DNA from: Candidatus Iainarchaeum sp.
GTDB lineage: Archaea > Iainarchaeota > Iainarchaeia > Iainarchaeales > VGJJ01
Length of the DNA: 32,000 nt
NCBI GenBank assembly: GCA_030688545.1
Contig: JAUYHT010000006.1
Location: forward strand, 150,001 to 182,000
Direction: 5' to 3'
The first letter of the stretch is position 1. Each line of letters starts with the position of its first letter. This document shows positions 4,167 to 23,842 of this stretch, piece after piece. The notes below the pieces were generated by a model. The model was not told where the DNA came from, did no database searches, and saw only the letters and a list, made by a program, of their open reading frames with translations. The translations under genes and the position numbers were made by a program.

Positions 4167-7100
4167 TTATTTCACGATGCACATCGTTTCGGCTTCTTTC
4201 TCTTGCTTGGTGAGCGCGTTCATCACTTCTTTGGGGTTCCAGAAGAATTCAATTTTCGCCCCCGTGCTGCGCACGCACATGGCATCCTGCTTCACCAATC
4301 TTAATATTTCTTCCACGCTGCCCAACCGGTTGGAGGGGGTGTTGCCCGGCAGGACATTCGTCCCATTCAGGGGAATGGAGTTTCCTTTCACTAATTCTCC
4401 CGTGAATTCCATTCCGGTCTTCCAGGCCACACGCGTGATCTGCGATTGCGATTCCTGGGGGGTGTAGAAGATGGATTTGAAGAATGTGTTTCCCGCGTGG
4501 ATGGTGTTAGCGCACCATTCAAATCCGTAGGCGATGTTCTCCTGCGCCCCCGTGAGGGCACAATCCGCATTGATGGCGCTCATATCGAAGCGGGGGGAAT
4601 AATGATCGAGCATCGCATTGTCAGCAAAATCCCGGCAGTTGGGCCCCACCCCATACCAGGGGTTGCCTTGCGCTCCGATGTAGGATTGGCTGGTGTCATT
4701 CCCCACTCCCACGGAATAGAACCCATATACGTCGCTCTGCACGGCGTCATTGGCGATACGCATCATCACCGGAGTAGCGAAGCTGGGGCTCCAGGTGAGT
4801 TGCAGCTGTTGTGTCCCCTCCTGGGTTAGGCTCAATACCGTTCCCCGCTCAATGCTGTTGAGGATGGGATATGCATTCACCGTTTTTGTTGTTAATGTCG
4901 TGACGGGGGTGGAGTCGGCAATATCGATAGTGTCCACGCTCTCCGCGAGATCCATGTTCACCTTGACTTTTTCCCCGGTGTAGTTGACCCCATACCCCAC
5001 TCTTCCTTGACCATCATCCGTACCAATGAGTCCGTTGAAGGGCAAGTAATAGAAGGGACTAATTTCCTCCACGGTGCTGGTTTTCTCCACGAGCACATTA
5101 ATCACCGCATCCACTTCCCCATTCGTGAAGAAGGGCATCCCCACCTCATCAAATCGGATATCTAAAGTCACATCATAAATTCCGGGCCCGGGGAGCAGGT
5201 ATCCTTCCGGAGGAAGAACAGATCCTTCCCTCTGCACAATCCAATGATCCCGATTAGTGAAGAACCGACGCAACCCGGTTTGAGGATCCAAATAGTAGGT
5301 GGGAGCGTCGAAGAAGCTGACCGTGGTGGCATACCTATCGAAATCCTGGAAGAAGTCGGGAGAAAATCGATCCTGCATGAGGTGGGCACGGTAATTAACA
5401 AGTCCCAGCAAGGAGTCCTTGTCGAATCCCGGGGGATAGATGAGAGATTTTCCTTCGTCCTCACTAGCTTTGATGAACGCCCCCAAACGAAGAGTAGTGA
5501 ATGGCTCGCACGCCACCAATCCAGAATTAGCGCCGATGAAGAATTCAGTGGTGATGCTATCGGAGGCGGGCTGAGAATTGAAGCAGTTCTCGCATTCTTC
5601 AGGGGTGAGGATGGCGGTGACGGTGTACGCCCCTTCACTCAAATTGGATACCACAAATCCCACACTCACCTGGCTCCCCCCGGTGGGGACGAAAACGCTT
5701 TGAGTGCGGACAATAGGATTTGTCGTCGCGCCGATGGCCTTGTATTCAATGCGAAGTTGCGCGTTGTTGGGCGCGGGGGCCTTATTCTGGATGCCCACCA
5801 CGATATTCACATCCGCCCCCCCAATCTTGTCCACGGCAATGGAAGAAATTCCAATGTCCGCCGCCGGGATAATCTGGTTTTGGCTCCCGGACAGATCATC
5901 CTGCACCGGGCACGCGAAGGGGGCGTTCTGCGTGATGAATTGGCGCAGCGTTTGCACCTTCTGGAGAGTGGCGATGGAAAACTGCGTGGCATCGCAGTAG
6001 ATGTGAGTGGCATCCCCTTGCTTGTCCACGCGTCCCGCGTCGCAGGCGTCATAGGGGATGTCAGTGAAGTTCCATTTGAAGGCCACTTTTGGAACCGCCA
6101 AGTCCCCTGTTTTCCCTGTCTTCTCGGAGAAGGTGTCACAGCTCAGGGCGATGGGGGGCACCGCCGTAGCAAACCGGCTTTCGGGGGGAATGGCATTGTA
6201 TTGGAGGTGGAATTTGCTCTTGAATTCCGTTTCGTCCTGCGCTTTCAATGCGTCTTCGTCAGGCACCTTGTTCTTGTATTTCTCTCCCGAGGCGTATTCA
6301 AATCTTTCCCCGAAAACTAAAAGGGTGCGGAATATGGTTTGGTTGACGAATTGGGAGATGTTGGTGAACGTCAACGAATCGGCCTCCACTCGCCCTGGGG
6401 TTTCTTTCTCCAGGTTTATTTTGGGCACGAGAGCTACTCCACTTTTGGTAACCCGTATGTCCTTGTCCGCCACCTGCTCATTCGCCCCTTTCTCCCCCGC
6501 AATCATGCGCATCCCCTCTATTTCCACATCCTTTCCCAACACCGTAGTATTGAATTCCTTGTCTCCCGATCCAAAATAATCGATGAGGCTCACCGCAATC
6601 GTCACCACCCCAAAGGAGACCCAGGGGTTCTGCGTCCCCAATGACAATTTCCCGGTGATTTTCCCCAGCGCACTGCCGATGGCCGACTCCTGGATCTTTT
6701 CCCGGGTGGAGGGTCGCTGGTCGGGGTTAGACTGGAGGAGCAAAACCAACCCAGTGGAGGGCATGGTTTCGGGTCCCTTTGTCATCGCTTGAGCCCATAA
6801 TTCCCGAGCCCGATCGTCGGCCTCGGAGAGATTTTCGTCGAATCCCTTCAATGCCTTATCAAAGTCTTCCAACGCCCTCCGGGCTTTCGAGACATCCTTG
6901 GCATGGATCGCGTTCTCCAAGGTGACGTGGTGGGTTCCAGCCTCCAGATCAAATAGTAATGCATTTTCGAAAAACGTTTTGTAATCAACGGACGTTGGGT
7001 TATTCGGATTGAATGTCTCGGGCACCCGATCGCGCACGACGGAGAGGCGATGATCCATATCAAGTAGGGTATGCTCCTGCTGTCCCCAAATATATTCATA

Positions 7101-10100
7101 CGCGCTCATGTCCGCTTCGGATGGCGGAGAAGGAGAGGATGTAGTGTCGGATGGCGGTGGAGTAGGCGGCGCAGGGGTCTCAGTGGTGGCGGCGGCCGCG
7201 GGATCCTCGGGCACCTTGTCGCGCCCCATGTAATCCTTTCCATCCAACCAATTCGTTCCGGCTGTTCCCAGGAAGGCAATCACTCCCGCCGCTAGTCCTT
7301 TCTTGAGGCTGTCTAGGAATTTCTTCTCGATCACCACGCGCACTTTCACCTTTTGCTGCGTGCAATGGTTTTCCAGGCGGGCGGTGTCAAATCCATCATT
7401 GGGATTATTGGGGTCATCAAATACATCGAATTCATAGCGGTTCAATTGCAAACAGGCATTAGGGTCTCTAATGCGGGCGCGGATGGTCTTGGCGCGAATG
7501 GGAACCTTGTCCTCATTCCCCTCAAGATTAACGTAAATGGGATATTGTCCCGGGTCCAATTGGTTGTCATTCACCTCAATGGTCTTTTTGTCATCCCCTT
7601 GAAGGGTGAATTGCTTCAGCGTCACTTCCAAATCGGTCTGCAGCCCCACTTCCACGGGTGACCCGCATCCCTTGGTTTCGATGGTGAAGGAATCCTTTTC
7701 TCCGGGGCGTAAATCAAGGATTTCCTTATCGTATATGACGCAGTCCCGCAGGTTGACCACACTCAATGCCGCTACCACGGTGCTCGTGAGCAATTGGGGT
7801 TTCCCTTCCTGTGGGTTTTCTGCTTGGAGAACAATATCTACTTTCGCATTCCCCTTAACCCCTCCATACGGCGTGAAATCCAGCCGTGCGATGATACTTT
7901 CCTGGGGATTGATAGTGGGGAGGAAGGGAGAGAAATAACCCGTTCGTATTTTGGCCGCACCAATGGCAGTAGGATTATCCTGCTTGAACACACTCAGAAC
8001 TATTTCCCCTAATTCATTCCCGCTCCAGTCCGCGCGCGCCGCCAATTGGCGTAAGGAAATGGGGTTGCCTCCAATGCTGCAATTGTTCTGAATGCGAAAT
8101 TCATACGTCACCGTGTCGCCGTCACTGCTCGTCTCCCAATTCCGGGGCACCGCATTGAAGCAGGTGGGGTCATCCACCGGGGCACTAATCCCTATCCCAT
8201 ATCGTAGGGGCAGGTCGAACACCCATTCCGTGCCATAACTTTCCGCCCGCACCTCGAGGACCGCATCCAAATCCACGTGTTCCAATAGCTGGCGCGCCTC
8301 CGGGGTCAATACGCTTCGCAGGTTCACCGTTAACAGTCCATTGGCCGGGAGGACATTCCCCACATAAGGAAGCAAAGCGGATTCGATCTTCTCCTTATCC
8401 AAAAGTCCCTGCAAATTACCCTGTATTTTCATGCGGGTAATGCGAAGAGGCAAGCTCGTTTGGTTGGTGATGGTGAAGGGGGTCGTTTTTTCTATTTGCG
8501 TTTTGGCATTGATGGATATCCCCAGCTTCTCTGGATCAAAGGCCAGAATGGCTCCCGATATGGCCAATTCCTGGATGGCGGGATTGAACCCCGCTTTCTC
8601 CACCTTCAGGAAGATTTTCTTCCCGGGGGCCTGGGCGGGCAAAGTGATTCGTGCGTTCCCGGCCGCGTCCGTGAACGTTTTCCCTATCACAATACCCAAA
8701 TTGTTTTCCAATGTCACTAATGCTCCTTCCACTTCATCCCCGGTGGCGGAATTCTCAGCATGCACATCTAAGGTAATGGGTATGTTGCTCGGGTAGAAAG
8801 AAGGTGTTACATCCACACGCAGATCCTTGTCCCCCGTGATGTTCACCTGGATGCTCCGGCTGAACACGGATGAGAAATCAGAAACCAATTCGAAAGTGAT
8901 TAATGTGCTTCCTGCGAGGCGCGGGATGAATTGAATGGTGCCTCCCACCTTCTTCTGGGGGGTCAAATTTCCCACTCCCAAGGGAGCGCGGAACTGGTTA
9001 TCGTTCACAGTCCCGCTCAACCGGGCATTATCCGCATTGAAAATATCATACGTCGTGAAATCAATCCCTTCATTGGATGCGCCGATGCGCAGGTTGGCAT
9101 TCGTGTGGAATCCCGTACCATTGTTCAACAGGTTGAAGGTAAGATTGTATTCATTGAATATCTGGGCGTTGAATTGTTCCCCCGCGTCCTCGATGCGCTG
9201 ATCCTCAAGATCCAGGATGGAGGCGTCGAAGCAGAATTCTTTATCACATAAAGTGGTAACCCCCACCTGGTAAGTAGCCGATTTGGTGGCGGCGTACAAT
9301 TCTTCCACCGGATTGGCATCCGAAGGATCACGTAAGATATCTCCGTTCTCGGCGCGCACCTTATAGAACAGTTTGAGCGTCTCCTGTGGGGCCACATTAT
9401 CGCGCACGCTCAGGGTGACTTCGAATTCATAAATCCCCGGTTGAGGATCCCGATGCACCGCATTCACCCATTTAGCTGCGTCGAAGGTGATGCTTTCCCC
9501 ATCACTATTCAACCCATTCTGGGGATCCCACGAGCTCCCTTTTACGACGACGGTGCGGGGAAAAGCAATACGGGAAACATACCATTCGTCCTTCTCCACG
9601 ATATCCTTCTCCCCCGTACGCACATGAATATCCATGGTATCCAAATCATCCTGCTCTTCGGGAATGCTGATTCGAAATCGGGCTTGATACTCCCTTCCTT
9701 TTCCCACGCCCGTCACAATCTTTCCGCTCGAGTCAAACAGCCCCACTAATTCCATTTGGATGGAACCCCGAGGTTGAAGGGGGGGCATCACGACCTCAAA
9801 GCGTTGTGTGGTCTCCGGAAGAATGGGCTTCTGGATCGTAGTAACCGTGGCATAGTCTGTTTTCTGCACCACTAAAAACACGTCTTTGTCCGCCTTGCTG
9901 CGCTGGCCGGAGCGAGGCAGGATATACATCCCATTCGTGTCTGTCAAATCCGCTCCCAGGAGCTGGTTCTTGAACGCATTGAATACGGTTACCTTGGCAA
10001 ATGGAATGGGGTTCCCCCGATTGTCAACCACGCGGATGCTCACCGTGCCATCCGGAATTTCCATGATCATGGTTAATGTATGCGTGGCCGGATCGTCGAT

Positions 10101-11567
10101 GGCGAAGAAGTGCTCTCCGCTCAGCGCGGTTAACCCCGCTTTGTACGCGAAAGCGGTGTAGTTTCCTGTCACCACGTTCTTGAATTTAGCAACCCCATTG
10201 GCATCCGATACAATTTGTTCATAGGGGGCCAGGAACCCGGTGTCCGCATTATACAATATGACCGCCGCGTCCGCCACGGGAACATCATCCTGATCCTTCA
10301 ATTGGATTTGGAATACTGCTCCATTCATTCCATCAAATTTCTCGAGCCCCAGGACGAGGGTGCTGGTGGTGCTCCCCAGCACGCTCTGTTGGGCAGGGAT
10401 ATAATCTTCCTTGGAGGCGGATATGGTATAGGAGAGCGTTCGGTCCGGAATGGAGAGAACTGCTTCCCCCGACGCATTGGTTGTTGTCGTTTGAAGCACG
10501 GTGTTCCCCTGTTTGAGCTTTACGATGGCGTCCCGCAACACGGCTTGGCTCAGCTTGTCCTGCACGCGCACATTCAATGTGCCCGCGGCCTCTTTAGTAA
10601 CCGTAATCGTGACGGAAGCGGTGTCCCCGCTTCCCACGGATACGGTTTGTTGCGCACTCGTGTATATCCCGCGTGGGTCCGACACGACCATAGTATACGT
10701 CCCGGCCGCGACCCCCAATGAGACGCTTCCCCCCGCGTCCGTCAATCCCGCTTTGACCTCTATTCCATCGCGCTGCGCACTCACGTACAAGTCAGCCGCC
10801 GCCGCCCCCAATTGGTCTTTTACCGTGACGAAAATAGTGGCATCCGTAGTCGTGCGGGGAGATAGAATGATGTTCTGCACCTCCTTGGTGACGCGGAAGG
10901 ATTGGATGGTTTCATATCCTGTAACTTCCACCGTCACGATGAGTTCCCCGCAGTCCGCATTGGGCGTCACCGTGAAAACGCCTCCAATACCACTGATGGG
11001 AGAAGGAGGGGTTCCATACGAGGAAGAGCACGCGAATGTGAGCACGGCATCATTCAACACGGGTTGTCCCACGGTATTGACTAATTTGATGGTGCGGGAA
11101 AGAGATTGGCTTTGAAGAGGGGTGAGAGCGATGACTTGCGTCCGATTGTCTGAAGAAGGAGTGAAGCTGCTCCGCACGACTTCCCATTGAGTCGTGTCCA
11201 CTTCATAGTCGATTCGAGTCCCCCCCGCCACATTAAGAACAATTTCTCCCAGGGTATCGCTCACCAATGTTTCTGTTCTCCCCTGGTATGTAAATTGCAC
11301 CGGCACATTGGGCAGGGGCGCCGAATCTGGGTCAACCACTAAAAATGTCACGGCGACTTCCGGTCCGGCGAAAATCCCGGTGAAGGGAAGGAAGAGAAAA
11401 GCCACTCCCAGAAGGACAAGTAAGGATACGAGGGCGAAGCTGGGTATCTTGGTGTCGATGGGATCGATGATCTTGTACACCGGCACCCCATGCTTGTCCA
11501 GGAAGTCGAGCCCCGCGTACCATTTGTCTTCGAGTGCGAAATAGGTTTGTTTGATGACGTCGCCCAT
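4167..11567 (-). CDS. Giant signal-anchored surface protein, paralog G2 (2,466 aa from ATG 11567)
   Basis: Uninterrupted 7.4-kb ORF. The track start at 11603 is a GTG. I prefer ATG 11567 because the protein then begins MGDVIKQTYFALEDKWYAGLDFLDKHGVPVYKIIDPIDTKIPSF followed by the helix ALVSLLVLLGVAFLFLPF, like the other paralogs. The body has tandem beta-sandwich repeats (e.g. TVSIRVVDNRGNPIPFAKVTVFN...TDTNGMYILP), many N-x-S/T sequons, a P/T/S linker DPAAAATTETPAPPTPPPSDTTSSPSPPS, and the motif THIYCDATQF. Confidence 0.9.
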   Translation of the reverse strand: MGDVIKQTYFALEDKWYAGLDFLDKHGVPVYKIIDPIDTKIPSFALVSLLVLLGVAFLFLPFTGIFAGPEVAVTFLVVDPDSAPLPNVPVQFTYQGRTETLVSDTLGEIVLNVAGGTRIDYEVDTTQWEVVRSSFTPSSDNRTQVIALTPLQSQSLSRTIKLVNTVGQPVLNDAVLTFACSSSYGTPPSPISGIGGVFTVTPNADCGELIVTVEVTGYETIQSFRVTKEVQNIILSPRTTTDATIFVTVKDQLGAAAADLYVSAQRDGIEVKAGLTDAGGSVSLGVAAGTYTMVVSDPRGIYTSAQQTVSVGSGDTASVTITVTKEAAGTLNVRVQDKLSQAVLRDAIVKLKQGNTVLQTTTTNASGEAVLSIPDRTLSYTISASKEDYIPAQQSVLGSTTSTLVLGLEKFDGMNGAVFQIQLKDQDDVPVADAAVILYNADTGFLAPYEQIVSDANGVAKFKNVVTGNYTAFAYKAGLTALSGEHFFAIDDPATHTLTMIMEIPDGTVSIRVVDNRGNPIPFAKVTVFNAFKNQLLGADLTDTNGMYILPRSGQRSKADKDVFLVVQKTDYATVTTIQKPILPETTQRFEVVMPPLQPRGSIQMELVGLFDSSGKIVTGVGKGREYQARFRISIPEEQDDLDTMDIHVRTGEKDIVEKDEWYVSRIAFPRTVVVKGSSWDPQNGLNSDGESITFDAAKWVNAVHRDPQPGIYEFEVTLSVRDNVAPQETLKLFYKVRAENGDILRDPSDANPVEELYAATKSATYQVGVTTLCDKEFCFDASILDLEDQRIEDAGEQFNAQIFNEYNLTFNLLNNGTGFHTNANLRIGASNEGIDFTTYDIFNADNARLSGTVNDNQFRAPLGVGNLTPQKKVGGTIQFIPRLAGSTLITFELVSDFSSVFSRSIQVNITGDKDLRVDVTPSFYPSNIPITLDVHAENSATGDEVEGALVTLENNLGIVIGKTFTDAAGNARITLPAQAPGKKIFLKVEKAGFNPAIQELAISGAILAFDPEKLGISINAKTQIEKTTPFTITNQTSLPLRITRMKIQGNLQGLLDKEKIESALLPYVGNVLPANGLLTVNLRSVLTPEARQLLEHVDLDAVLEVRAESYGTEWVFDLPLRYGIGISAPVDDPTCFNAVPRNWETSSDGDTVTYEFRIQNNCSIGGNPISLRQLAARADWSGNELGEIVLSVFKQDNPTAIGAAKIRTGYFSPFLPTINPQESIIARLDFTPYGGVKGNAKVDIVLQAENPQEGKPQLLTSTVVAALSVVNLRDCVIYDKEILDLRPGEKDSFTIETKGCGSPVEVGLQTDLEVTLKQFTLQGDDKKTIEVNDNQLDPGQYPIYVNLEGNEDKVPIRAKTIRARIRDPNACLQLNRYEFDVFDDPNNPNDGFDTARLENHCTQQKVKVRVVIEKKFLDSLKKGLAAGVIAFLGTAGTNWLDGKDYMGRDKVPEDPAAAATTETPAPPTPPPSDTTSSPSPPSEADMSAYEYIWGQQEHTLLDMDHRLSVVRDRVPETFNPNNPTSVDYKTFFENALLFDLEAGTHHVTLENAIHAKDVSKARRALEDFDKALKGFDENLSEADDRARELWAQAMTKGPETMPSTGLVLLLQSNPDQRPSTREKIQESAIGSALGKITGKLSLGTQNPWVSFGVVTIAVSLIDYFGSGDKEFNTTVLGKDVEIEGMRMIAGEKGANEQVADKDIRVTKSGVALVPKINLEKETPGRVEADSLTFTNISQFVNQTIFRTLLVFGERFEYASGEKYKNKVPDEDALKAQDETEFKSKFHLQYNAIPPESRFATAVPPIALSCDTFSEKTGKTGDLAVPKVAFKWNFTDIPYDACDAGRVDKQGDATHIYCDATQFSIATLQKVQTLRQFITQNAPFACPVQDDLSGSQNQIIPAADIGISSIAVDKIGGADVNIVVGIQNKAPAPNNAQLRIEYKAIGATTNPIVRTQSVFVPTGGSQVSVGFVVSNLSEGAYTVTAILTPEECENCFNSQPASDSITTEFFIGANSGLVACEPFTTLRLGAFIKASEDEGKSLIYPPGFDKDSLLGLVNYRAHLMQDRFSPDFFQDFDRYATTVSFFDAPTYYLDPQTGLRRFFTNRDHWIVQREGSVLPPEGYLLPGPGIYDVTLDIRFDEVGMPFFTNGEVDAVINVLVEKTSTVEEISPFYYLPFNGLIGTDDGQGRVGYGVNYTGEKVKVNMDLAESVDTIDIADSTPVTTLTTKTVNAYPILNSIERGTVLSLTQEGTQQLQLTWSPSFATPVMMRIANDAVQSDVYGFYSVGVGNDTSQSYIGAQGNPWYGVGPNCRDFADNAMLDHYSPRFDMSAINADCALTGAQENIAYGFEWCANTIHAGNTFFKSIFYTPQESQSQITRVAWKTGMEFTGELVKGNSIPLNGTNVLPGNTPSNRLGSVEEILRLVKQDAMCVRSTGAKIEFFWNPKEVMNALTKQEKEAETMCIVK

Positions 11568-11630: not shown

Positions 11631-11751
11631 GGTATGGCCGGAAGCGGCTTTGCACATAAACCTATCATTCCCAAAAAAGGAACCTCCAGCACGAAAGGGC
11701 CTTCGATTCGACATTTCAGCCTCTAATGTTTCCAGTCGTTTATTGCATAAG

Positions 11752-11759
11752 TTTATAAT
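11752..11759 (+). promoter_or_regulatory. TATA-like box (TTTATAAT) for the plus-strand ORF 11781..12323
   Basis: It is centred about 26 nt upstream of ATG 11781, the spacing expected for an archaeal leaderless transcript. It is divergent from the G2 promoter. Confidence 0.5.
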
Positions 11760-11780
11760 TTACTAAATCCCCGTCAGGGC

Positions 11781-12323
11781 ATGGGTATTTTGAAAAGGAA
11801 TGTTCGCCGGGTCGCACGACGAGAGGCACGTGGAAAAGAGACGAACGCACCGAAGCCAATTTGGCCGACAACAAAAATACAAAGGTTGATCGCTTGGCAC
11901 ACACGCTTGGACAATATGTGCGATGATTCGTTGTATGTGTTGGAGAAGTTCAAAGTCAGTATAGCACGAGTAGGGATGGAGTACACCTACGACAGAGAAC
12001 ACATTGAAGGACTCTGGGGAAAGGGCAAATACGTGGAAGGGAACAGGAAAATACCTATCGAATGGTCTACTGGATGGGTAGACGCAGATACCCCCTTTGG
12101 AAAAGCCCTTCGCGACACAAACAAGCTTGTAATGGGACTGAAACTACATCAAAACAAAAAAGGAACCCTAACCCCAGGGCAAGTCTTAGTAAACAAAGAA
12201 CGGTTGGATAAACTTATCCAGCAAATTCGCCGCGTGAAGACGCTTAATGCCACGCAATTACGGGAGTGCCTGCCGCGACCCCCAATGAGACGCTTCCCCC
12301 TGCGTCCGTCAATCCCGCTTTGA
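11781..12323 (+). CDS. Hypothetical protein (180 aa); the only plausible plus-strand gene; its last ~17 codons read antisense through the G2-like gene fragment
   Basis: ORF from the track, with a TATA-like box at the right spacing and no recognisable domain. From about 12269 onward (..RECLP/RPPMRRFPLRPSIPL) the frame runs over the antisense of the pseudogene fragment, so the C-terminus looks like an accident of a junction. Confidence 0.5.
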   Translation: MGILKRNVRRVARREARGKETNAPKPIWPTTKIQRLIAWHTRLDNMCDDSLYVLEKFKVSIARVGMEYTYDREHIEGLWGKGKYVEGNRKIPIEWSTGWVDADTPFGKALRDTNKLVMGLKLHQNKKGTLTPGQVLVNKERLDKLIQQIRRVKTLNATQLRECLPRPPMRRFPLRPSIPL

Positions 12324-12502: not shown

Positions 12503-12601
12503 ACCAATGTATGCTAAACCAAGAATAATTCAACAAGGAACCAATATTTATGAAGTATCCAATGCACGAAAAGGAGGCTTGCCGCTCATAAACGGGACTT
12601 T

Positions 12602-13135: not shown

Positions 13136-13156
13136 ATAAAAATGCGATTATTTTCA

Positions 13157-13934: not shown

Positions 13935-14402
13935 TCACACCCCTAATCCCGCCAGAGGGAGGATGCGGCGCAGGGTTTCCATATCAGGGAATGCGTGCCA
14001 GAGCGCCCACACGAGCAGGCCGAATGCTAACACATACACTACATCATACCCGGCCGCGATGGCATAGTTGGGCAGCCGGACCTGACCATTTTCATAGATG
14101 TCTTCCAGGGCAAACCCTCCCAAAGTTTTTCCAAATAGGATGGCGGCCACAAGAGAAACGCCCAACAGGTTGCCCGAGATGGGAAAAACACTCACTAAAG
14201 GAGAGAGGAGCATCCCCAATAGGAAGAGGAACAACCACCCCATGATTCCAAAGAACAGGGTTCCCAGCCCCGCGCTCACCAAAATAAGTCCCAAAATCGC
14301 CAGCAGGGTGGGAGGGTCAAGGGAATAGGTAACCACTTGCGTCCCCAAAAAAACTCCCATCGTCCAGGCGAGGAAGAGGATGAGGAGGGCATGGTAGGTC
14401 AT
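13935..14402 (-). CDS. Polytopic membrane protein (155 aa, about 5 helices) immediately downstream of G3
   Basis: The track ORF 13935..14477 overlaps the G3 stop. The internal ATG 14402 gives MTYHALLILFLAWTMGVFLGTQVV... It starts 25 nt after the G3 stop codon, which begins at 14428. GC content is similar to the giants. Confidence 0.7.
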   Translation of the reverse strand: MTYHALLILFLAWTMGVFLGTQVVTYSLDPPTLLAILGLILVSAGLGTLFFGIMGWLFLFLLGMLLSPLVSVFPISGNLLGVSLVAAILFGKTLGGFALEDIYENGQVRLPNYAIAAGYDVVYVLAFGLLVWALWHAFPDMETLRRILPLAGLGV

Positions 14403-14427: not shown

Positions 14428-17400
14428 TCAGGTGGCCGTGCACTGGAGGGCCGCGGGCACCACGTCTTCGGAGGCAAGATCCCAGATCACCGTGAACACA
14501 TCCTTGGAGATGTCTCCGCAGGCTTGTCCGGTTTGGATGCGGGCGAGAATATCTTGCAACGATTGGGGCGCTGCGGCCGGGCCGCGAAGATCCATAAATT
14601 GGACCTGGGTGCTGGGGCTGGCAGGAGGCAATCCCACGGTGTTTGAAATAGTCTTCACATCCGCCGTCCCGGTGGTGCAGGCGGGGAGCAACCGATAATT
14701 TTTCTCCGGTGGAATAAAGGCCATCCCCGTGTACACATATTCGTTCCCCGCCAGATCCCCGACTAATGAAAAGTCGCCCGGTCGCCCGGTGTTGCAGGTG
14801 GGACCCGTGGTCGATGATACGGGTATTCCATTCGGGTTGGCGCAATCAATCCACCGGATGCTTGCTCCATTGATGGCCACTCCCGGGGGAATAGCGGCTT
14901 GCCCGGATTCCACAATGGTATATTGCAACGCAGGCTGGGAGGCGGGGCTGTCCATCCGCAGACGAATGGGGGCAGGAGTAGAAGGAGCATACTGGAAGCT
15001 ATACCCCCCACCCCTCCCTTCCAGTCGGAAGAACGTGGGCACACCCTGCGCGGCCACGAGATCCCCGATGGCTGAAATAGTCTCATAGGTTTGGAGCGTG
15101 AGCAAGGGCACTCCCGTCGAAGGAATGCTGCTCGTGAACCCCACACTATCGTCCCGATAGGGCATTCCCGCGCTCACGGCGGGCAGGCTTAACCCAACCC
15201 CATAGCCGCTGCGTACCCTCCCAACGCCCGTTTTCCCATTGAAGGGAATGCGGAAGAAGGGGTTGTCCGCGTAGGCGGTGTTTCCGCTGTTTAGTTGCGT
15301 GTCAATTTCCCCCAGAGAAAGATAGGATACCGCATCTCGTTTAATTCGCACGGCCAGGGATTTCACGCCATCCGAATCATTTTCCCATGTGGCCACGAAG
15401 CTAGCGGGATACAACCCTGCCTCCGGGACAGGAGGGGAAATAAGCATGCGTTGAATAATATCCAAATTGGTTAGCATTTGGTTGTTGAAGGCCGCCGGGT
15501 AGTCATACCCTTCCCCGCTCACGAACGCCAAATCCGAGAGGAGGAACTGGGAGAAAGCATCCTGCATCATGTACACGTTCATATCCACGAACCTCCCGCG
15601 CAAAGAATCGATGTCCGCGTACGCCGTGTCCTGGAATGTCAATCCCCCTTTCTGTCGCGCATGGGACAGCACATACCCTAAGCGGGCAGCATCCCAAGCC
15701 TCTGCTTCCGTGTCCGTGGGAACGAGCATCCCCACTTGCACGGATTCGACGGCATCATAGATGGCCCGATATACTCCGGGGGTGAACTGATGACTGTCCC
15801 CGGGTTGAGTGAGGGAGGCGAGTGCCCAGCAGTCTGTCCCGCAGAGGGTTGGATTTATTTTGTTGGACTCATCGAAGAAATGCCTGAATTCGGAGAACAG
15901 CCATACGTATTTCTTCTCCCCATTTGGGAAAGTCACTTCATCGGCCCCCATTCCTTTGATTCCAGTCGCGACAAGCCTGCTCACCTTATCCGCGTCCAGC
16001 ACGATCACCAATTGCTCCGCCAATTTATTCCCAGCCGCGTTGTTCTGTATTTCCTCGAACTTCTGTTTGACGAACGCCACGTAAGAAGTGTAATCGGCCG
16101 GCACTTCATTCAAATTGGGGGCGTTGCTCAGGGCGGTAAACACATTGTCAATGAGCAATTTGGCAGATTGGGAGGACGTGGTTTCTTTAACCACCCCATC
16201 CCCAGCCGAATTAACGAAGAAGGAGCGCGTGGGCTTCCCAGTCGTCTGGTCATCCGTGACGGTAATTTGATCATGAATAGCAAGCACGAAATTCTGGCTC
16301 GTGTAATCCTTATCAGCATCGCTGAACAATCCCGAGGCCTGGTTGGCTTTCACGAAGGTATCGAATTCCTTCAGACGTTTGGAGGTGAATATCATGAATT
16401 GCGTGGCATCGCAAAAGTATTGCGTGCAGTCCGGACTCCCCTCATAGGTCCAATCCCACGTGAGCCGGTCGAACCCATACTTGGAAACGAATCCGGGACC
16501 TTTCTCATAACCTGTTTCCGTGCAGGCCTGGGGGGTGAATATGGCCGTACTTGGTTTTCCCACGGGTTTGATGACAATGCGCACGGGCAGGGACACTTTC
16601 TGCGTTCCCGGGTTGGCAATGGTTCGCGTGACCTCCAAAGTTAGAATACCCTCGATGACCGCTTCCTGCGTCAGGTTAAGTGGACGATTGATCTGGACCT
16701 GGAGGTCGTGTTTTCCGGACACCGAAAAGATGGCTTGCACGCTCGGGTTTTGCCGGCTCGTGAGGATAGTAGGGGTGACACTCCGGATGTAATCCACTTG
16801 TCCGCAGAATTCTTTTCCGTCAATGATCCCGGTCTTCAGCACTGCATTGGGGGCTTTCGTGGTATGGGTGAGGATGGTCTGCCCCTGGAATTCCGCGTCC
16901 CCAAATTCGAGGGCGGCCGCCCCCGTGTCGGTGCCAATGGCACGAAAACGTAATGCGTCCTCATTGACGCATTCTGAATAGTTGGTGATGCTTTCACTTC
17001 CCCCCTGCAGCAAGGGGTTGATAGCTGAGGCCAGGTTGAAGAGGTTTTCGAATATCACGGGGAAGGGTTTCTGCTGCGGCCCCCCATATGGGTCCAAGTA
17101 TTTCACCGAGATGGTGCCATAGGATTCGACCCGGTAATAATTAAGTTCCGCGAAGAATTTGAGGTCCAGCACCTGCTTGGGAAAGCTCCCTCCCTGGTCG
17201 AAGGGGGAGAGTTGATGTTGATACGTAGTGAGGTCGGGGAATATCTGGAACTCCAATACCTGCACGGTGTCGCGTCCGTCTCCTTGCGTGGAGATGCCTA
17301 TGATTTGGATGTCCTGCACCAGGGAATTGGGTTGTTGGCTCACTCCTTGCTTGGGGTCCAATGTGGTATTTCCTTTGGCATCCTTGAGGGAAGCAATGGT

Positions 17401-20400
17401 CACCGTGTCCGCGCTGGGCACCAATCGTACACCCTCGTCGTAGCAATTGTTGTACACCTTTCCCTTCACCGGCTTCTGGATGAAATCATTAAAACGGTAT
17501 TTGGTGGTGTTCAGGGAGATGCAATCCTGGTTGACCTCCGTGGGGGATCTCACGAGGACGCTTATGAACGCCACTTCCGTGGAAGGATCCGTACTCCCTT
17601 GCGCGCGGGCATTTACGTTCACCCCATATTTGCCTATGCGGTAACCGGGTTGCACGAACACCCGCTGCGTTTGCGTGGGTTTCAGTGAAAAGGTTCCCTG
17701 CGAGGACTGGAGATTGGGATCCACATCCAATACTATTTGTACTTCGGATTGGCACGCATTCTCTATGCGAAATTCGGTTCCCGCGCACCCGAATTGTCCT
17801 CCGGCCCCCGGGGCATAATTGTATCGGTCGAAATTGGGGTTGGCAAACGGCCCTTGAGCCCCGGCGAAGTAGTTGGCGGATTGCGGCGTGAACTGGGCCG
17901 AATAGGGACCCATGTTCCCAAACCCATCCACCCCTCCCGGTCCATACGCCCCAGGGTAGGTTCCCGTGAAGAATGGACTCCCATACGTGATATTAGAGGG
18001 AATGGCACTGGTTCCACTGGGATTAGATGTCTGGTTGAGCGTCTGGAACCCGGGGTTGAAATAGGGTACGCCCGTGGGTCGGTAGACTTGATTGTAATAA
18101 TTGCTCATCTGACTAAAACCAGTGTTGAGGGCGCAGGTTTCTATTTCAAGGATGGGAGGAGCGTTGACCCGCACGCATTGCGTCAAATCATTGACGACGA
18201 GGTTCATGGTCACCGTCTTTTCCAGGTGATCCGGAAACCCGGTTCCCGTGAGGTTGGTGGCGCGGAATACGATTTGGGGTTGCGCAACTCCTGAAAGGAT
18301 GTCTCCCGGGGCGAATGTAATGGTCACAATGGCCTCCCCATTGGCGGGGATGGCATCCAAAACGGTTTCATAAGCGGCCCCCAGGGTTTTGGTTTCCTGA
18401 GTCGTGGCACCGGTGAACGTCCCCAGGGAGTTCCCCGCGAGCTGTTTTACTTTCACCGCGAGGTCCGTGAGACGCACGGGAACCCCTTTCACCGTGCACG
18501 TGTTCTTGATCTCAAAGGCCTGCTGTTTCCTTTCCTTGGTTCCCACGAACGCATCCCAGGTCACGGGCTGTACGAGCAAACAATCCTCCACATCCACTTC
18601 CCCCCCGAATCCCAACTTGAGAGTGAGGGGAAGGGCATTGGTGAAGACTTTTCCCGAGGCTTCGTTTTCCACGATCACGAGGAGACTCCCTTTGAATGTT
18701 TTGGCGGCCAATAATTTCCTTCCTTTATCGGTGAGGTCGAGCGTGAATTGGATATTGGCATCCCCATTCACCGGCAATGTTTCCCCGATGACTTCATGGG
18801 TGATGAGGTCGAACCGCACGAGTTCCTCAAAATCCCCCGAGAGTTTGACATCTCGTATCACGAGGGGAATGCTGGCCAAATTCAGGGCGCGCACCTCTTT
18901 GGCCTTGCGCCCCGTGCCATTGATGATAAGCGTTTCATTCAATTGGGCCGGCTGGAACAGGAGGATGTCGGCTCCCACGGTGATGGATATGGTCACTGGC
19001 TTATACCCAGGTTTGGAAAGGGTAATGTCCAATTTGTCATTGACATTGGGTTCATTCAGTTCGAATGGAAAAATCCCCTCCCCATCCGTGAACCCGCTCG
19101 CGTGGAGCACGCTATTCTTCAGCACCTGCACATTCACATTTTCCAATGGAATAGCGGTTTCCCCCAGGGGTTTAGTTACGCGCACCAGGATTTGGTTGGA
19201 TAGCAAAGGCAGTATGGCCTTGGGCACGATTTCCACTGTGAATACTTCGGCCGCGTCCACCCGGATAACCACATCCCTCGAAAACAATTCCTTTTTGTTG
19301 CTGACCATCTTGAGCGAGACGATGGATGTTCCTTCCTTGCTCGCGTCCACGTTCACGAATCCGAATACGACATTGTTTTGTTGGATGATGCCCACAGGTA
19401 TCTCCGCTTTGTTCCCAGCTACGTTTCCCGTGCGCTTGGCCCCCACCGCATTAGTCACCTCGAATGCTCCTAAAGAGGCGCTCCCCGAGCTGGATTGGAT
19501 CACCAAAGACGTGTCTTGCAACACTGCCTCCGAGGTACTATGAATGGTGAATAACATTTTGTGTCGTGTCCCAATATCCAATGTGGTGTCCCCCAGAAGA
19601 GGGGTTTGCAACCCATTGGCAATATCCTCCATCACGAGGGCGGCGCAGAATTCCTGGCTGCACACGCTCGCGCTCGCTCCCACACTGTAGGAAGCCAAAT
19701 TAGTATTGGCATACAACCCCTGCTTCTGTTGGGTGGATTCGGCTCCCGCCAATACCGCGTCCACTGGAAATCGTACGAATGATCCCGTTTTCCCCCACCC
19801 GCGGTAAAACAATGGCAAATCCGTCCCTTGGGCCACGCTGTCCTTCACCCGCACATCCACTTCCACGATAGTAATGCCTTCCCGCGGGTTCTCGAAAACG
19901 ATGTTGCCCCATTTCGCCTCTCCCGAGGTGAGGTGCTGGGCATCAATCCCCAATCCGGTGGGCGGGGTATATGTGGTGCCCCGTTGGATGTTAGTGGTGG
20001 GGGCACGGATATTAACCAGGGTCCAGGCATCATTCTCCATAGGATTCGTCTGCCCATCTACGGCGTTCCCTGTGCGCACGTGCATCCCCGTCTCATTGAA
20101 AATAGCATTGCGCGGGATGAAGAGGCCGAGTTGAATGGTATACGTTTGCCCCGGCGCCAATCCCGCGTCCGCGAGAAGAGGTTGGGTATTCACCCAGGTG
20201 CCGAGCACCCGCACTTCGAGGCGCTGGATATCCTTTACCAATTGCGCCGCCACCATTTGGGTTATTCCTTTCTTGAGGGCAATGGGTAGGGTTGTATAGG
20301 GAAGATGCTCCCCCTCCGTGATCACGAAATACACCTGCTTGTCGGCCCGTAATGTCACTTCTTTAGTCCCATCCACGTCGAGGGAAATCTCATTCCCCTC

Positions 20401-22090: not shown

Positions 22091-23842
22091 TTACTCGCAC
22101 GCGCTCACATCAATGGTGCATTCCTGCGCACTGTTGGCGGGATAGCATCGGAGATCCCCTCCCGTGAAGGGCGTTCCTTGCGTTTGTCCATACACCACGC
22201 ACTGGTTGACCCCATCCCCATATTGGGTGAACAGGGGCACGTTGTTCACGTAGTCGCAGGGATCAGATGGGTCCAGGGAGTTGTTTCCACAAACAACGGG
22301 GGGCGGATGATACGTGTCGGGCAAAGCGCACGCGGTCTCCGGGCAGGCGCCCGCACTCACGATATCGCCCGTGACGAATAGTCCCGCGTAATCGCGGATG
22401 GTGGTCAGGCAATAACTCGTGCACCGTTCGACTTGCGCATTGGCCGCAAATGAATCGAGGATGCGCACCTCATACCGCAGGGGGGATCGGTGATCCACTA
22501 CCGCGTACTGCGTGTTCGTATCCTCGAAGCGGAGGGTCACATTGATGGTTGAGAGTTTGGTGCAGTGCGCCTCCACTCCAAAGCTGGGGGCGTTTTCCAA
22601 TCCCTCAAATGTAATCGTTTTACTGGGCACCCCCACGGGTTGACTCACAACAGTAATGTTGTTGGTGAGCAATCGAAAGTCAGGCGTTTGTGCGAGTTGG
22701 GTGAGGTTTATCTGCACTTGGTTCCCGATGATTCCTCGCGTGAGGGTGGAGAGTGCGGCCGCGCGCGATGGACCCACGGCGGGATCATAATGCGTGATGT
22801 TGGCATTGATAGATTGGCATAGGTTAAGCGATGCCGCGGGGGCATCGCAGGTTAATGGAACATTCTGGGGATAATAATCCTCGAATAGCGTCAATCCCGA
22901 TTGCTCGGCCGGGCAGAGGTTTCCACCCTGCGCCCCCGGTGGGGGTTGCGCCCCGGGGCCTATCTGCGCGAGTCCGGGAGTAAACGGTTGGCTACGGTAT
23001 CCGCACGCCCCCGAATCACACATTCCAACTCCCAAATTATTCAGTTGCGCATGAAACTGGGGGGATAACAATCCCCCGCCCCCCACCAATTGTCCTTGGG
23101 CCAATTCATGCGAATATTTGAGCGCGCGAAAAATGCGCAAGGGCACATAGATGCGGAATTGCCCGCGAGGGATTACCGGAGACACGATAACTCGTCCCGA
23201 TGAGGGATCCCTCACGTGGATGGCGGGCAATTTCTCGTATTCGTCATCCGATATCAATGAAAAATCCAGGTTCACATAGAATGTTCCCACGCATTCCACG
23301 GGGGGTGTGGTTTCATCACATTGGATGACTTGCAAGTAGTCCTTTTGTGCCCCGGCGGTCTGGTTCAGCACGCTTTCGATGGCCTGCTTGATCTCGGGTT
23401 CTTGTCCCCCTTGAATGGTAAGCGTGTAACCCCCGATGCTCCTTTCTTTGGTGAGAATGATTTGATATAAATTGGCGGCAATTCGCCCGGCGATGATACT
23501 CCCATTGTTCCCTCCGAAATAGAAGGTGGAGAAATGCCCGATAACGTCCTTCCATTGTTGGGATTGGGCGCTGTACAAATAGGGGTTGTCCGGGGTCTGG
23601 GTGTATTCCTCAATAGCATTGCGGATGCCATAATTAACCACCTGCAATGCGTCCGCGCGCGTCAGATCCGCGAGGGTTTGCATCCGGCTCTGCGCTTCGA
23701 TCTCCAACACCACTTCATTACTTGTGCGTTCCGCATTAATCATCGTATTAATGAGCAATCCCGCAAGGAGAATGAGGATGGCCGCCAGGAGCGCGGTGAA
23801 GAGGGTGAATCCCCTTTGGTTGCTAACTCGATTTGGTTTCAT
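22091..23842 (-). CDS. Type IV pilin-like (class III signal peptide) Cys-rich secreted protein, 583 aa
   Basis: The track ORF 22091..23950 overlaps the end of G4. The internal ATG 23842 gives MKPNRVSNQRG/FTLFTALLAAILILLAGLLINTMI: a short basic leader, a Gly, then ~22 hydrophobic residues. That is a prepilin-type signal, with Thr rather than Glu at +5. The mature part has 18 Cys, often in close pairs (CDETTPPVEC, CDSGACGY, CTSYC, CPETAC, ECTIDVSACE at the C-terminus). Confidence 0.8.
   Translation of the reverse strand: MKPNRVSNQRGFTLFTALLAAILILLAGLLINTMINAERTSNEVVLEIEAQSRMQTLADLTRADALQVVNYGIRNAIEEYTQTPDNPYLYSAQSQQWKDVIGHFSTFYFGGNNGSIIAGRIAANLYQIILTKERSIGGYTLTIQGGQEPEIKQAIESVLNQTAGAQKDYLQVIQCDETTPPVECVGTFYVNLDFSLISDDEYEKLPAIHVRDPSSGRVIVSPVIPRGQFRIYVPLRIFRALKYSHELAQGQLVGGGGLLSPQFHAQLNNLGVGMCDSGACGYRSQPFTPGLAQIGPGAQPPPGAQGGNLCPAEQSGLTLFEDYYPQNVPLTCDAPAASLNLCQSINANITHYDPAVGPSRAAALSTLTRGIIGNQVQINLTQLAQTPDFRLLTNNITVVSQPVGVPSKTITFEGLENAPSFGVEAHCTKLSTINVTLRFEDTNTQYAVVDHRSPLRYEVRILDSFAANAQVERCTSYCLTTIRDYAGLFVTGDIVSAGACPETACALPDTYHPPPVVCGNNSLDPSDPCDYVNNVPLFTQYGDGVNQCVVYGQTQGTPFTGGDLRCYPANSAQECTIDVSACE

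What the first reader, a model, noticed from the sequence alone, without database searches (positions are those of the whole stretch)
11364..11567. Conserved ~45-aa cytoplasmic N-terminal box plus signal anchor shared by all four giants
Seen, for G1 to G4 in turn: MGVRTFYHRLEDQWYALLDRLEGYVPVYKVIDPIDEKIPSFSLVIGLILLGVLGL; MGDVIKQTYFALEDKWYAGLDFLDKHGVPVYKIIDPIDTKIPSFALVSLLVLLGVAF; MGLKGLYTAGEDKYYALLDWMDKHGLPVYSIIDKIEAQNIPTFPLAVLVTFLVLVGL; MGLSAGLGNLYVKLEDAYYGVLDFFEEKGIGFPWAYNDALESKGIPALPVTLALFVLLIGG. This is by far the best conserved segment of otherwise very divergent proteins. It sits before the only N-terminal hydrophobic helix, so it is predicted to stay cytoplasmic (N-in, type II topology). 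Such conservation suggests a recognition tag, for example for targeting or insertion of very long nascent chains or for docking to a cytoplasmic partner, rather than a plain Sec signal. Equivalent coordinates are about 2661..2864 in G1, 21802..22005 in G3 and 31310..31520 in G4.
Basis: partly seen in the sequence, partly recalled or inferred. Interest (0 to 1): 0.7.

Follow-up and report, generated by a model that had tools for sequence, protein, structure and literature searches.

The report
Shared membrane-root module of archaeal giants
All four giant surface-protein genes in this window begin with the same unannotated 42-residue two-helix segment plus a membrane-spanning helix. This module heads hundreds of giant proteins in one group of tiny DPANN archaea (Iainarchaeia) and probably roots them in the cell membrane.

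Summary
Four minus-strand ORFs (G1 <1..2864, G2 4167..11567, G3 14428..22005, G4 23892..31520) each start with MG..Y..LEDkwY..LD…PVYk.iDpId..IPSF followed by a hydrophobic helix.

- **Conservation.** It is the best-conserved stretch of the giants: 46% against a 21% median in the window, and 54% against 25-27% across the family. Selection acts on the protein, because synonymous codons vary freely.
- **Distribution.** A profile finds 643 cluster representatives at E<=1e-10 among 1.84 billion proteins. In the 150 listed the box lies near the N-terminus. In 78 genome loci, complete carriers are 1,135-2,877 aa, and nearly all loci come from 'Candidatus Iainarchaeum' or unclassified archaeal MAGs. 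Short carriers that I checked are fragments or interrupted giants.
- **Annotation.** No Pfam, NCBIfam, PDB-sequence or Foldseek match exists.
- **Structure and topology.** AlphaFold predicts helix 2-25, helix 30-38 and a membrane helix 43-63, then an Ig-like domain. Charge bias and a 21-residue hydrophobic core favour an uncleaved N-in signal anchor.
- **Context.** The giants sit in a conserved ordered cluster: giant, pilin-like protein, giant, 4-TM protein, giant, giant, small membrane proteins.

My best reading is a shared cytoplasmic docking and assembly handle plus anchor. An ESPR-like biogenesis signal is the main rival. The function is untested.

The parts
11442..11567 (-). G2 cytoplasmic box, residues 1-42: helix 1 (2-25), turn, helix 2 (30-38), and the K-I-P that precedes the membrane helix
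   Evidence: Translation; alignments A1-A5 with invariant Y9 E13 Y17 D21 P42 and near-invariant P29 Y31 D35; AlphaFold secondary structure with pLDDT 82-92
11364..11441 (-). G2 signal-anchor helix and short flank (residues 43-68). It starts with the conserved S-F that follows the invariant P42
   Evidence: AlphaFold helix 43-63; hydrophobic core median 21 residues in 234 family members
2748..2864 (-). G1 cytoplasmic box (residues 1-39)
   Evidence: Translation; alignment A1/A2
2679..2747 (-). G1 signal-anchor helix (residues 40-62)
21883..22005 (-). G3 cytoplasmic box (residues 1-41), the subtype with a two-residue longer helix-2 loop (IEAQNIPTF)
21814..21882 (-). G3 signal-anchor helix (residues 42-64)
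31383..31520 (-). G4 cytoplasmic box (residues 1-46), a divergent subtype. Helix 1 is conserved and helix 2 is replaced by GIGFPWAYNDALESKGIP
   Evidence: P0002 and P0003 are the same subtype; P0062 matches G4 over its first 115 residues and in length
31317..31382 (-). G4 signal-anchor helix (residues 47-68)
1..2864 (-). G1 giant ORF (at least 954 aa, truncated by the window start)
   Evidence: CarboxypepD_reg, Big_1 and SpaA Ig-like repeats; 31% identical to G2 over 976 aligned positions
4167..11567 (-). G2 giant ORF (2,466 aa)
14428..22005 (-). G3 giant ORF (2,525 aa)
23892..31520 (-). G4 giant ORF (2,542 aa)
13935..14402 (-). 155-aa protein with several hydrophobic segments (read as four TM helices), directly downstream of G3. 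It belongs to a family that sits between giants in 13 loci and is a candidate membrane partner (inferred)
   Evidence: no Pfam match
22091..23842 (-). 583-aa Cys-rich protein with a type IV pilin-like (class III) signal, ..NQRG|FTLFTALLAAILILL, between G4 and G3. It is a conserved member of the cluster
   Evidence: (L068 homologue starts MDRKGFTLFTALV); no Pfam match

Best explanation
The box plus the following helix is the family-defining membrane root of a set of paralogous giant surface proteins of Iainarchaeia (DPANN archaea).

Shown:
- About 42 N-terminal residues are predicted to fold into two helices: a 24-residue amphipathic helix 1 with a heptad-like hydrophobic seam flanked by invariant E13, Y17 and D21, and a short helix 2.
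- These helices are held at a fixed distance from a roughly 21-residue hydrophobic helix.
- The first Ig-like domain of a 1,100-2,900-residue ectodomain begins immediately after that helix.
- The module occurs essentially only at the extreme N-terminus of such giants.
- The giants are encoded in a conserved ordered cluster together with a pilin-like protein, a 4-TM protein and small membrane proteins.

Inferred:
- The helix is an uncleaved N-in signal anchor, so the box stays on the cytoplasmic face.
- There it acts as a common docking and assembly handle. It fixes each giant to a shared partner, to the co-encoded small membrane proteins, or to the roots of the other giants, so that the four diverged ectodomains are mounted together on the cell surface.
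- By folding early it also helps hold the N-terminus inside while more than 2,000 residues are threaded out.
For: Distribution. There are 643 cluster representatives at E<=1e-10, and in the 150 listed the box is almost always within the first ~70 residues. In 78 genome loci the complete carriers are 1,135-2,877 aa, and 117 box-bearing ORFs were found, often two or three in tandem and co-oriented.

Constraint.
- Pairwise identity is 54% in the box against 25-27% in the ectodomain.
- The invariant residues are polar or aromatic (Y9, E13, Y17, D21, P42, plus P29, Y31, D35, S43, F44). Such residues point to specific contacts, not merely amphipathicity.
- The spacing from the ED motif to the helix is 26±1 residues in most members.
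- Synonymous codons vary freely, and the loci range from 27 to 61% GC.

Structure. AlphaFold gives H2-25, H30-38, H43-63 and then a beta-sandwich, at mean pLDDT 91.7 for 116 residues and 82.2 for 66 residues.

Topology and anchor.
- K+R is 2.35 before the helix against 0.81 after it, and the first charge after it is acidic in 71%.
- The hydrophobic core has a median of 21 residues (IQR 19-24, n=234), which is membrane-spanning length and longer than typical cleaved signal-peptide cores (the length criterion is general knowledge).
- The domains that follow are of extracellular type.

Assembly idea.
- The cluster order giant, pilin-like, giant with the long-loop box subtype, 4-TM, giant, giant, small TM proteins recurs across genomes.
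- The 4-TM family sits directly next to a giant in all 13 loci where it occurs.
- Box subtypes follow orthology and cluster position, not genome. The G2 subtype recurs in L007 and L071 and the G4 subtype in P0002, P0003 and P0049. This suggests non-equivalent, position-specific roots.
Against: - No interaction was tested, and multimer modelling was not available.
- The co-encoded membrane proteins show no obvious basic surface that would complement the acidic box (by eye).
- The 4-TM protein was found in only 13 of about 80 loci, although many loci are too short to show it.
- A folded N-terminal plug alone could explain N-in retention without any partner.
- Many members have Pro or Gly followed by small residues (for example LPLLGGGST|D) after the hydrophobic core. 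Signal-peptidase cleavage is therefore not excluded, and SignalP and DeepTMHMM were not available.
- The model coordinates could not be inspected, so how helices 1 and 2 pack is unknown.
Confidence: 0.45

Rival explanations
1. The box is an ESPR-like biogenesis signal. It would be a conserved extension of the export signal whose job is only to manage targeting or translocation of an exceptionally long chain, for example by modulating SRP/Sec engagement, pacing translocation or enforcing N-in orientation by folding. It would have no role after insertion and might be removed by signal peptidase.
For: The box is restricted to very large exported proteins and always sits at the extreme N-terminus. 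The total length of box plus hydrophobic region (63-70 aa) is similar to the long autotransporter and TPS signal sequences with a conserved roughly 25-residue extension (PMC2805444). Many members have a helix breaker and small residues after the hydrophobic core, compatible with a c-region (listing). All paralogue types keep the box, as expected for a generic export tag.
Against: The hydrophobic core has a median of 21 residues, which is anchor-like and not the length typical of cleaved signals. The box is net acidic and its invariant residues are Tyr, Glu and Asp, unlike the basic n-regions of export signals. Orthologue-specific box subtypes are conserved by cluster position, which a generic tag does not need. 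Most giants have no other strong hydrophobic segment, so cleavage would release them. There is no Pfam ESPR match.
Confidence: 0.3
2. The box is a homotypic or heterotypic oligomerisation element. The heptad-like seam of helix 1 would form a short cytoplasmic coiled coil that, together with the membrane helix, bundles several giants into a stalk without any other partner.
For: Hydrophobic positions 5, 9, 12, 16, 20, 23 and 27 follow a 3-4 spacing. One half of helix 1 is conserved and the other half is variable (helical-wheel reasoning). Tandem co-oriented giants with position-specific box subtypes recur. The first third of the membrane helix (F44, L46, L52-53) is more conserved than a generic anchor would need.
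Against: Helix 1 is only about 24 residues long and acidic, so like-charged helices would repel unless they are paired with cations or a basic partner. No oligomer model could be computed. This reading overlaps with the best explanation and is kept apart only for the 'no other partner' claim.
Confidence: 0.15
3. The topology is the reverse (N-out), with the giant portion cytoplasmic. Alternatively, the conservation reflects a nucleic-acid element or recent gene conversion at the 5' ends and not a protein module.
For: The box is net acidic, about 5.9 K+R against 7.5 D+E, which on its own is not a strong 'inside' signal.
Against: There are more positive charges before than after the helix, and an Ig-like adhesin-type domain follows directly. 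The DNA of the four boxes has only about 66% column identity, all synonymous codons are used at invariant residues, and the module is conserved across loci from 27 to 61% GC. No DNA repeat was found at the box positions.
Confidence: 0.03

Closest known systems
Extended signal peptide region (ESPR) of large autotransporters and two-partner-secretion proteins of Gram-negative bacteria
   Same: It is a conserved N-terminal extension placed before the hydrophobic core of the export signal. It is found preferentially on very large exported proteins and is proposed to have functions beyond plain targeting (PMC2805444). The overall signal length is comparable at 50-70 residues.
   Different: There is no sequence relationship: no Pfam hit at E<=10. 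ESPR is bacterial, about 25 residues long and part of a cleaved signal. The module here is archaeal, has 42 residues predicted as two helices, is net acidic with invariant Tyr, Glu and Asp, and is followed by a 21-residue core that looks like an uncleaved anchor.
Type II (N-in) signal-anchor membrane proteins with a folded cytoplasmic N-domain
   Same: The layout is a single N-terminal membrane helix, a cytoplasmic N-terminus and a large ectodomain. It is established in eukaryotic systems (my own knowledge) that folding of the N-terminal domain favours N-in orientation.
   Different: That is a topological class, not a homologous family. Here the cytoplasmic part is a tiny, extremely conserved, lineage-specific module, and the ectodomain is 1,100-2,900 residues long.
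Archaeal class III (type IV pilin-like) signal peptides
   Same: Both have a conserved motif that directly abuts the N-terminal hydrophobic helix on the cytoplasmic side. A true pilin-like protein (..RG|FTLFTAL..) is encoded in the same cluster.
   Different: The giants have K-[VI]-[VI]-P-S-F before the helix and no [KR]-G cleavage motif. The leader is 42 residues and structured, not 3-15 residues. The weak NCBIfam FlaK hit is 14.9 bits against a cut-off of 330, which is noise.
Giant membrane-anchored surface proteins of other DPANN archaea (the 'SPEARE' proteins of Nanohaloarchaeota)
   Same: These are also giant, Ig-like-domain-rich, cell-bound proteins of small symbiotic archaea, thought to mediate contact with hosts (PMC10266531).
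   Different: SPEARE proteins are single proteins of 5,000-9,400 aa with a VirB4/TraG-like ATPase domain. The proteins here are 1,100-2,900 aa, occur as three or more ordered paralogues, show only Ig-like Pfam domains and carry the N-terminal box. That paper reports no such box, and I did not compare SPEARE sequences with the box.

Membership tests
ESPR (Pfam PF13018) | Match to the ESPR profile at the N-terminus | tested here: not met
   Pfam scans of the full giants (E<=0.1) and of five isolated box+TM sequences (E<=10) gave no ESPR hit
ESPR (Pfam PF13018) | Extension is part of a signal peptide that signal peptidase I removes | not testable with these tools
   No SignalP and no proteomics were available. 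The hydrophobic core median of 21 residues argues against cleavage
Sec-type cleaved signal peptide | Short basic n-region, 7-15-residue h-region, c-region with small residues at -3 and -1 | tested here: inconclusive
   The n-region is 42 residues and net acidic, and the h-region median is 21, both atypical. Small or Gly-rich residues after the core are common
Class III / type IV pilin-like signal | [KR]-G/A/S cleavage motif immediately before the hydrophobic helix, with a short leader | tested here: not met
   The consensus before the helix is D-K-[VI]-[VI]-P-S-F and the leader is about 42 residues. The neighbouring 583-aa protein does meet this motif
Tat signal / lipobox | Twin-arginine motif before the h-region, or a lipobox Cys after it | tested here: not met
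   There is no RR motif in the box consensus, and the four window giants have no Cys directly after the helix
Gram-positive YSIRK or KxYKxGKxW signal motifs | Profile match to these N-terminal motifs | tested here: not met
   No Pfam or NCBIfam hits
Type II signal-anchor topology (a class, not a family) | N-terminus cytoplasmic, one membrane-spanning helix, C-terminal bulk outside | tested here: met
   Charge bias is 2.35 against 0.81 K+R. The first charge after the helix is acidic in 71%. The core is 21 residues and Ig-like domains follow. These are indirect indicators only, because no dedicated predictor or experiment was available
Any solved or curated domain | Sequence or fold similarity of the box to a known domain | tested here: not met
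   The PDB profile search gives a best E of 0.6. Foldseek of box+TM against PDB gives 0 hits at E<=10. The 116-residue model hits only Ig-like domains at E>0.1

The most novel reading that the evidence does not exclude
The box is the recognition handle of a lineage-specific assembly pathway. The ordered set of four or more giants, the pilin-like protein, the 4-TM protein and the small membrane proteins would form a previously undescribed archaeal cell-surface machine of Iainarchaeia, for example a host-attachment apparatus. Each giant would be plugged through its subtype-specific box+TM into the co-encoded membrane proteins. This would be an archaeal sorting signal for giant proteins with no bacterial or eukaryotic homologue.
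Probability: 0.25. Interest if true: 0.75.

Novelty: new variant of a known kind. Interest (0 to 1): 0.55.

Why it matters
Iainarchaeia are small-genome DPANN archaea; the one complete genome seen here is 1.24 Mb. In this window the four giants and their companion genes fill about 32 kb, so the cluster would take up roughly 30-35 kb of such a genome. None of it has any annotation beyond generic Ig-like repeats.

The box is the one feature that all these giants share and keep almost unchanged. That makes it the most tractable entry point for several tasks:
- recognising the family, since a 45-residue profile retrieves hundreds of members;
- asking how an archaeon without known dedicated secretion systems targets, orients and anchors 2,500-residue surface proteins;
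- finding the partners that hold such proteins on the cell.

If the box proves to be a sorting or assembly signal, it would be an archaeal counterpart to the conserved signal extensions of giant bacterial adhesins.

Tried and rejected
- **Known-domain search.** I ran Pfam on the whole giants and on isolated boxes, NCBIfam, a PDB sequence profile and Foldseek against PDB for two models. Only noise came back: MamI at 15.8 bits against an 80-bit cut-off, FlaK at 14.9 against 330, DUF4306 and Sec20.
- **Word-indexed protein search.** The box profiles returned only 10 and 18 short hits and missed the giants. The exhaustive representative search was the informative one.
- **'Box on short proteins'.** I rejected this for the cases checked. 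Eight of the ten looked-up short representatives have contig data: six sit on 0.5-0.8 kb contigs, and one of those shares its cluster with a 3,295-aa member. The other two (P0011, P0022) are on ~6 kb contigs and are followed by further ORFs running to the contig end. P0006 is followed by an overlapping ORF of at least 867 aa. The remaining two have no contig on record. The roughly 200-aa ORF in L059 was not examined.
- **Gene conversion or a DNA/RNA element.** Rejected.
- **Viral or mobile origin.** No relatives were found in IMG/VR. A first attempt with alignment A5 failed for lack of a conserved pattern.
- **Non-archaeal bins.** L034 is labelled a Falkowbacteria bin and L022 a Thaumarchaeota bin. 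L034 holds only giants, and L022 shares neighbour families with the other loci, so mis-binning is the likely explanation.
- **Neighbour enrichment.** Hel308-like helicase, NAC, a beta-CASP RNase and FKBP genes recur near some giants. These labels are my own reading of the sequences. I regard them as housekeeping synteny and not as partners.
- **Literature.** Four searches found no description of this box or cluster.
Full report
**What is in the window.** ORF listing and translation show four very long ORFs, all on the minus strand. G1 runs from 2864 off the window start (at least 954 aa). G2 is 4167..11567 (2,466 aa from the ATG), G3 is 14428..22005 (2,525 aa) and G4 is 23892..31520 (2,542 aa). 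Pfam finds only Ig-like or prealbumin-like repeats (CarboxypepD_reg, Big_1, bMG3, SpaA, SdrD_B), mostly within residues ~70-600, and nothing on the N-terminus. G1-G3 are homologous along their first ~950-1,300 residues at 25-31% identity, and G4 is much more distant.

**Is the box really the conserved part?** In a MAFFT alignment of the four proteins the first 45-column window ranks first: 0.46 mean pairwise identity against a median of 0.22, with the next unrelated region at 0.36. Across 95 family members from other genomes the median pairwise identity is 54% for the box, 33% for the hydrophobic helix and 25-27% for two 300-residue ectodomain segments. The box wins in 99.7% of 600 random pairs.

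In a 56-sequence alignment, Y9, E13, Y17, D21 and P42 (G2 numbering) are invariant. P29, Y31, D35, S43 and F44 are at least 90% conserved, and D14 and L20 are over 80%. The distance from the E-D motif to the start of the helix is 26±1 residues in most members.

Conservation is at the protein level. All synonymous codons are used at the invariant residues, including both TCN and AGY codons for serine. The four window copies have only about 66% column identity at the DNA level. The related loci range from 27 to 61% GC. No DNA repeat covers the box.

**Where else does it occur?** A profile of 14 box sequences was searched exhaustively against 1.84 billion cluster representatives. It gave 1,058 hits at E<=1e-3 and 643 at E<=1e-10. 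In the 150 listed, the match starts within the first ~20 residues in nearly all cases, with a few at 31-115. Lengths reach 2,916 aa, and 77 of the 142 newly returned representatives exceed 1,000 aa.

A scan of one genome per GTDB species found 114 confirmed matches, of which 78 loci were kept. Nearly all are labelled 'Candidatus Iainarchaeum' or unclassified archaeon MAGs, and they include the complete genome GW2011_AR10 (CP010424). In those loci the box heads ORFs of 1,135-2,877 aa whenever the ORF is complete. The exceptions are a 79-aa interrupted copy with a giant fragment behind it and one roughly 200-aa ORF that I did not follow up. Two members have a ~90-residue K/E-rich extension in front of the box.

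Short database hits that I checked are artefacts of fragmentation. Most lie on 0.5-1 kb contigs, one shares its 90% cluster with a 3,295-aa member, and three on longer contigs are followed by the rest of an interrupted giant. Nothing was found in IMG/VR viral contigs. The module is a marker of one lineage-specific giant-protein family and was not seen in CPR bacteria. One contig in a Falkowbacteria bin holds only giants and is probably mis-binned.

**Is it a known domain?** No. Pfam and NCBIfam scans of isolated boxes at E<=10 gave only noise far below cut-offs. A profile search of all PDB sequences gave nothing better than E=0.6. Foldseek of the box+helix model against the PDB gave no hit at E<=10. 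The 116-residue model hit only Ig-like adhesin, pilin and macroglobulin domains, all at E>0.1. Four literature searches found no description of the box or the cluster.

**Anatomy.** AlphaFold2 was run with a 56-sequence alignment. It predicts helix 2-25, a four-residue turn at the conserved (G)-[VI]-P, helix 30-38 (VYKIIDPID), a turn ending in the invariant P42, and then a helix 43-63 that begins at the conserved S-F. A beta-sandwich follows from residue ~70. Mean pLDDT is 91.7 for residues 1-116 and 82.2 for residues 1-66 modelled alone.

On a helical wheel the hydrophobic positions 5, 9, 12, 16, 20, 23 and 27 form a 3-4 seam. The invariant E13, Y17 and D21 lie along one edge of it, and the opposite half of the helix is variable (my own reasoning). 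About half the surface of helix 1 is thus under constraint. That is more than a nine-residue helix 2 could plausibly cover, so something else probably contacts it: the membrane surface, another chain or a partner. I could not inspect the model coordinates, so the packing is inferred and not seen.

**Topology and cleavage.** Across 81 sequences the 15 residues before the helix hold 2.35 K+R on average, against 0.81 in the 15 after it. The whole N-terminal region holds 5.9 K+R and 7.5 D+E, so it is net slightly acidic. In 234 sequences the hydrophobic core has a median of 21 residues (IQR 19-24), and the first charged residue after it is acidic in 71%. An Ig-like domain follows almost at once.

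These indirect indicators favour an N-in orientation and a membrane-spanning, uncleaved signal anchor. The caveat is that many members carry Pro or Gly and then small residues after the core (for example LPLLGGGST|D), so signal-peptidase cleavage cannot be ruled out without SignalP or proteomics. In the four window giants and most relatives this is the only strongly hydrophobic segment. Cleavage would therefore leave them unanchored.

**Genomic context.** Crude gene calls on all loci, clustered by BLAST and HMMs, show that the giants come in tandem, co-oriented sets within a recurring order. That order is: giant; a ~550-610-aa Cys-rich protein with a type IV pilin-like class III signal (KG|FTLFTAL); a giant whose box has the two-residue-longer helix-2 loop; a ~155-aa 4-TM protein; a giant; a giant; then two or three small membrane proteins. 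The window shows G4, pilin-like, G3, 4-TM, [low-GC island], G2, a 353-aa protein and G1. Locus L007 is collinear with it but has only a 157-nt gap between the 4-TM gene and the next giant, with no island.

The 4-TM family was found in 13 loci and always lies directly next to a giant. It is preceded by a giant in 12 and directly followed by one in 11. Box subtypes follow orthology and position, not genome. The G2 type (..DKHG.PVYK..DPID.KIPSF) recurs in L007 and L071, and the G4 type (..GIG.PWAYND..) recurs in P0002, P0003 and P0049. None of the companion proteins has a Pfam match.

**Mechanism.** Shown: a strongly constrained, structured ~42-residue N-terminal module sits at a fixed distance from a ~21-residue hydrophobic helix. 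It occurs essentially only at the start of giant Ig-like-repeat proteins, and these are encoded in a conserved multi-giant cluster.

Inferred: the helix is an uncleaved N-in anchor, and the box sits on the cytoplasmic face as a common docking and assembly handle. Folding early to keep the N-terminus inside would be a secondary role. I prefer docking or assembly over a pure export tag for three reasons. The invariant residues are polar or aromatic and not basic. The core has anchor length. Each paralogue keeps its own box subtype at its own cluster position, which a generic tag would not require. My confidence is moderate (0.45).

The main rival (0.30) is an ESPR-like biogenesis signal, possibly cleaved. 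The analogy to the long, conserved signal extensions of giant autotransporters and TPS proteins is close in logic and length (PMC2805444). There is no sequence relationship, and the charge and core length differ. A partner-free coiled-coil bundling of the roots (0.15) overlaps with my preferred reading. Reverse topology or a nucleic-acid explanation is essentially excluded.

**Comparison with known systems and novelty.** It works most like two things: (a) a type II signal anchor with a folded cytoplasmic N-domain, and (b) the conserved signal extensions (ESPR, YSIRK-type motifs) that mark very large surface proteins in bacteria. It is not a member of any of these families. The profile tests were not met, and the class III, Tat and lipobox motifs are absent.

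Giant membrane-anchored Ig-like proteins are known in other DPANN archaea (nanohaloarchaeal SPEARE proteins, PMC10266531). Those are single 5,000-9,400-aa proteins with an ATPase domain, and that paper reports no such box. I did not compare SPEARE sequences with the box. I therefore rate this a new variant of a known kind: an undescribed, lineage-specific N-terminal anchor and signal module.

It matters mainly as the handle on a large, wholly unannotated gene cluster that takes up a sizeable share of very small genomes. Interest is 0.55. If the box proves to be the sorting or assembly signal of a dedicated surface machine (probability ~0.25), the interest would be about 0.75.

Noticed in passing
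window 11700-13930 (low-GC island); 12266-12426 vs 10699-10859: A stretch of about 2.2 kb at 42% GC, against ~53% elsewhere, separates the 4-TM gene from G2. In the collinear locus L007 that gap is only 157 nt. The island carries a 161-nt, 92%-identical copy of an internal G2 segment and three ORFs of 131-180 aa. The one ORF scanned (177 aa) has no Pfam match. It looks like an insertion or recombination scar.
   Followed up: partly
window 22091-23842 (-); homologues in L007, L010, L011, L016, L068, L076, L079, L080: A 583-aa Cys-rich protein carries a type IV pilin-like class III signal (NQRG|FTLFTALLAAILILL; L068 has MDRKG|FTLFTALV). In every locus where its downstream side is visible it sits immediately upstream of the giant with the long-loop box subtype. 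It has no Pfam match.
   Followed up: partly
window 13935-14402 (-); 12 other loci (e.g. L003 2190-2690, L007 9365-9832, L009 1960-2430): A ~155-aa family with several hydrophobic segments (three BLAST clusters joined by HMMs) always lies directly next to a giant and is usually sandwiched between two co-oriented giants. It has no Pfam match and is a candidate membrane partner of the giants.
   Followed up: partly
L003, L004, L006, L009, L017, L021, L023, L030, L042, L052, L060 (downstream of the last giant): Two or three small (84-140 aa) hydrophobic proteins of one family (clusters c2, c3 and c24 in my analysis), plus further small membrane proteins (c13, c12), follow the last giant of the cluster. 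This end of the cluster lies outside the window.
   Followed up: partly
window 31556-31616 and 31654-31714: A 61-nt direct repeat (80% identical, 98-nt spacing; AGGGCCGTTTTCG.CCGGCCGCACCGAGGGACG...) lies just upstream of the G4 start codon. Its function is unknown.
   Followed up: no
G2 residues ~1385-1600; relatives L039, L040, L041, L012 and L003 around residue ~1500: A subset of giants has one or two additional strongly hydrophobic segments near residue 1,500 (Kyte-Doolittle up to 3.0). In G2 two weaker hydrophobic stretches flank a charged, helical-looking ~170-residue region and a Pro/Thr/Ser-rich linker. Some paralogues may cross the membrane again.
   Followed up: partly
G2 ~residue 1830, G3 ~residue 1840, G4 ~residue 1720 (window minus strand): The three complete giants share a Cys-containing motif in their C-terminal halves: THIYCDATQFSIATLQK in G2, CTQYFCDATQFMIFTSK in G3 and CTQAYCDAEQAANFLSK in G4. 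Apart from the N-terminal regions and a weak G2-G3 match near the C-terminus, this is one of the few similarities visible there.
   Followed up: no
L037 and L073 (box at residues ~82-99); L010 2349-9428 and L044 2111-9454 (second box hit at residues 1855 and 1338): Two relatives carry a ~90-residue Lys/Glu-rich extension in front of the box. Two long ORFs show a second, internal box match, which may reflect fused or read-through neighbouring giants or assembly errors.
   Followed up: no
window 2947-4008 (-): A 353-aa Lys/Arg/Glu-rich, coiled-coil-looking protein lies between G2 and G1. L007 has a 388-aa ORF at the same position with no detectable similarity to it. It has no Pfam match.
   Followed up: partly
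L001 5375-8172; L030 8690-8929; L081 4944-6468; L082 4544-6310: Several giants are interrupted shortly after the box by a frameshift or stop, with the remainder in another ORF. These could be assembly errors, pseudogenes or a phase-variation-like on/off mechanism.
   Followed up: no
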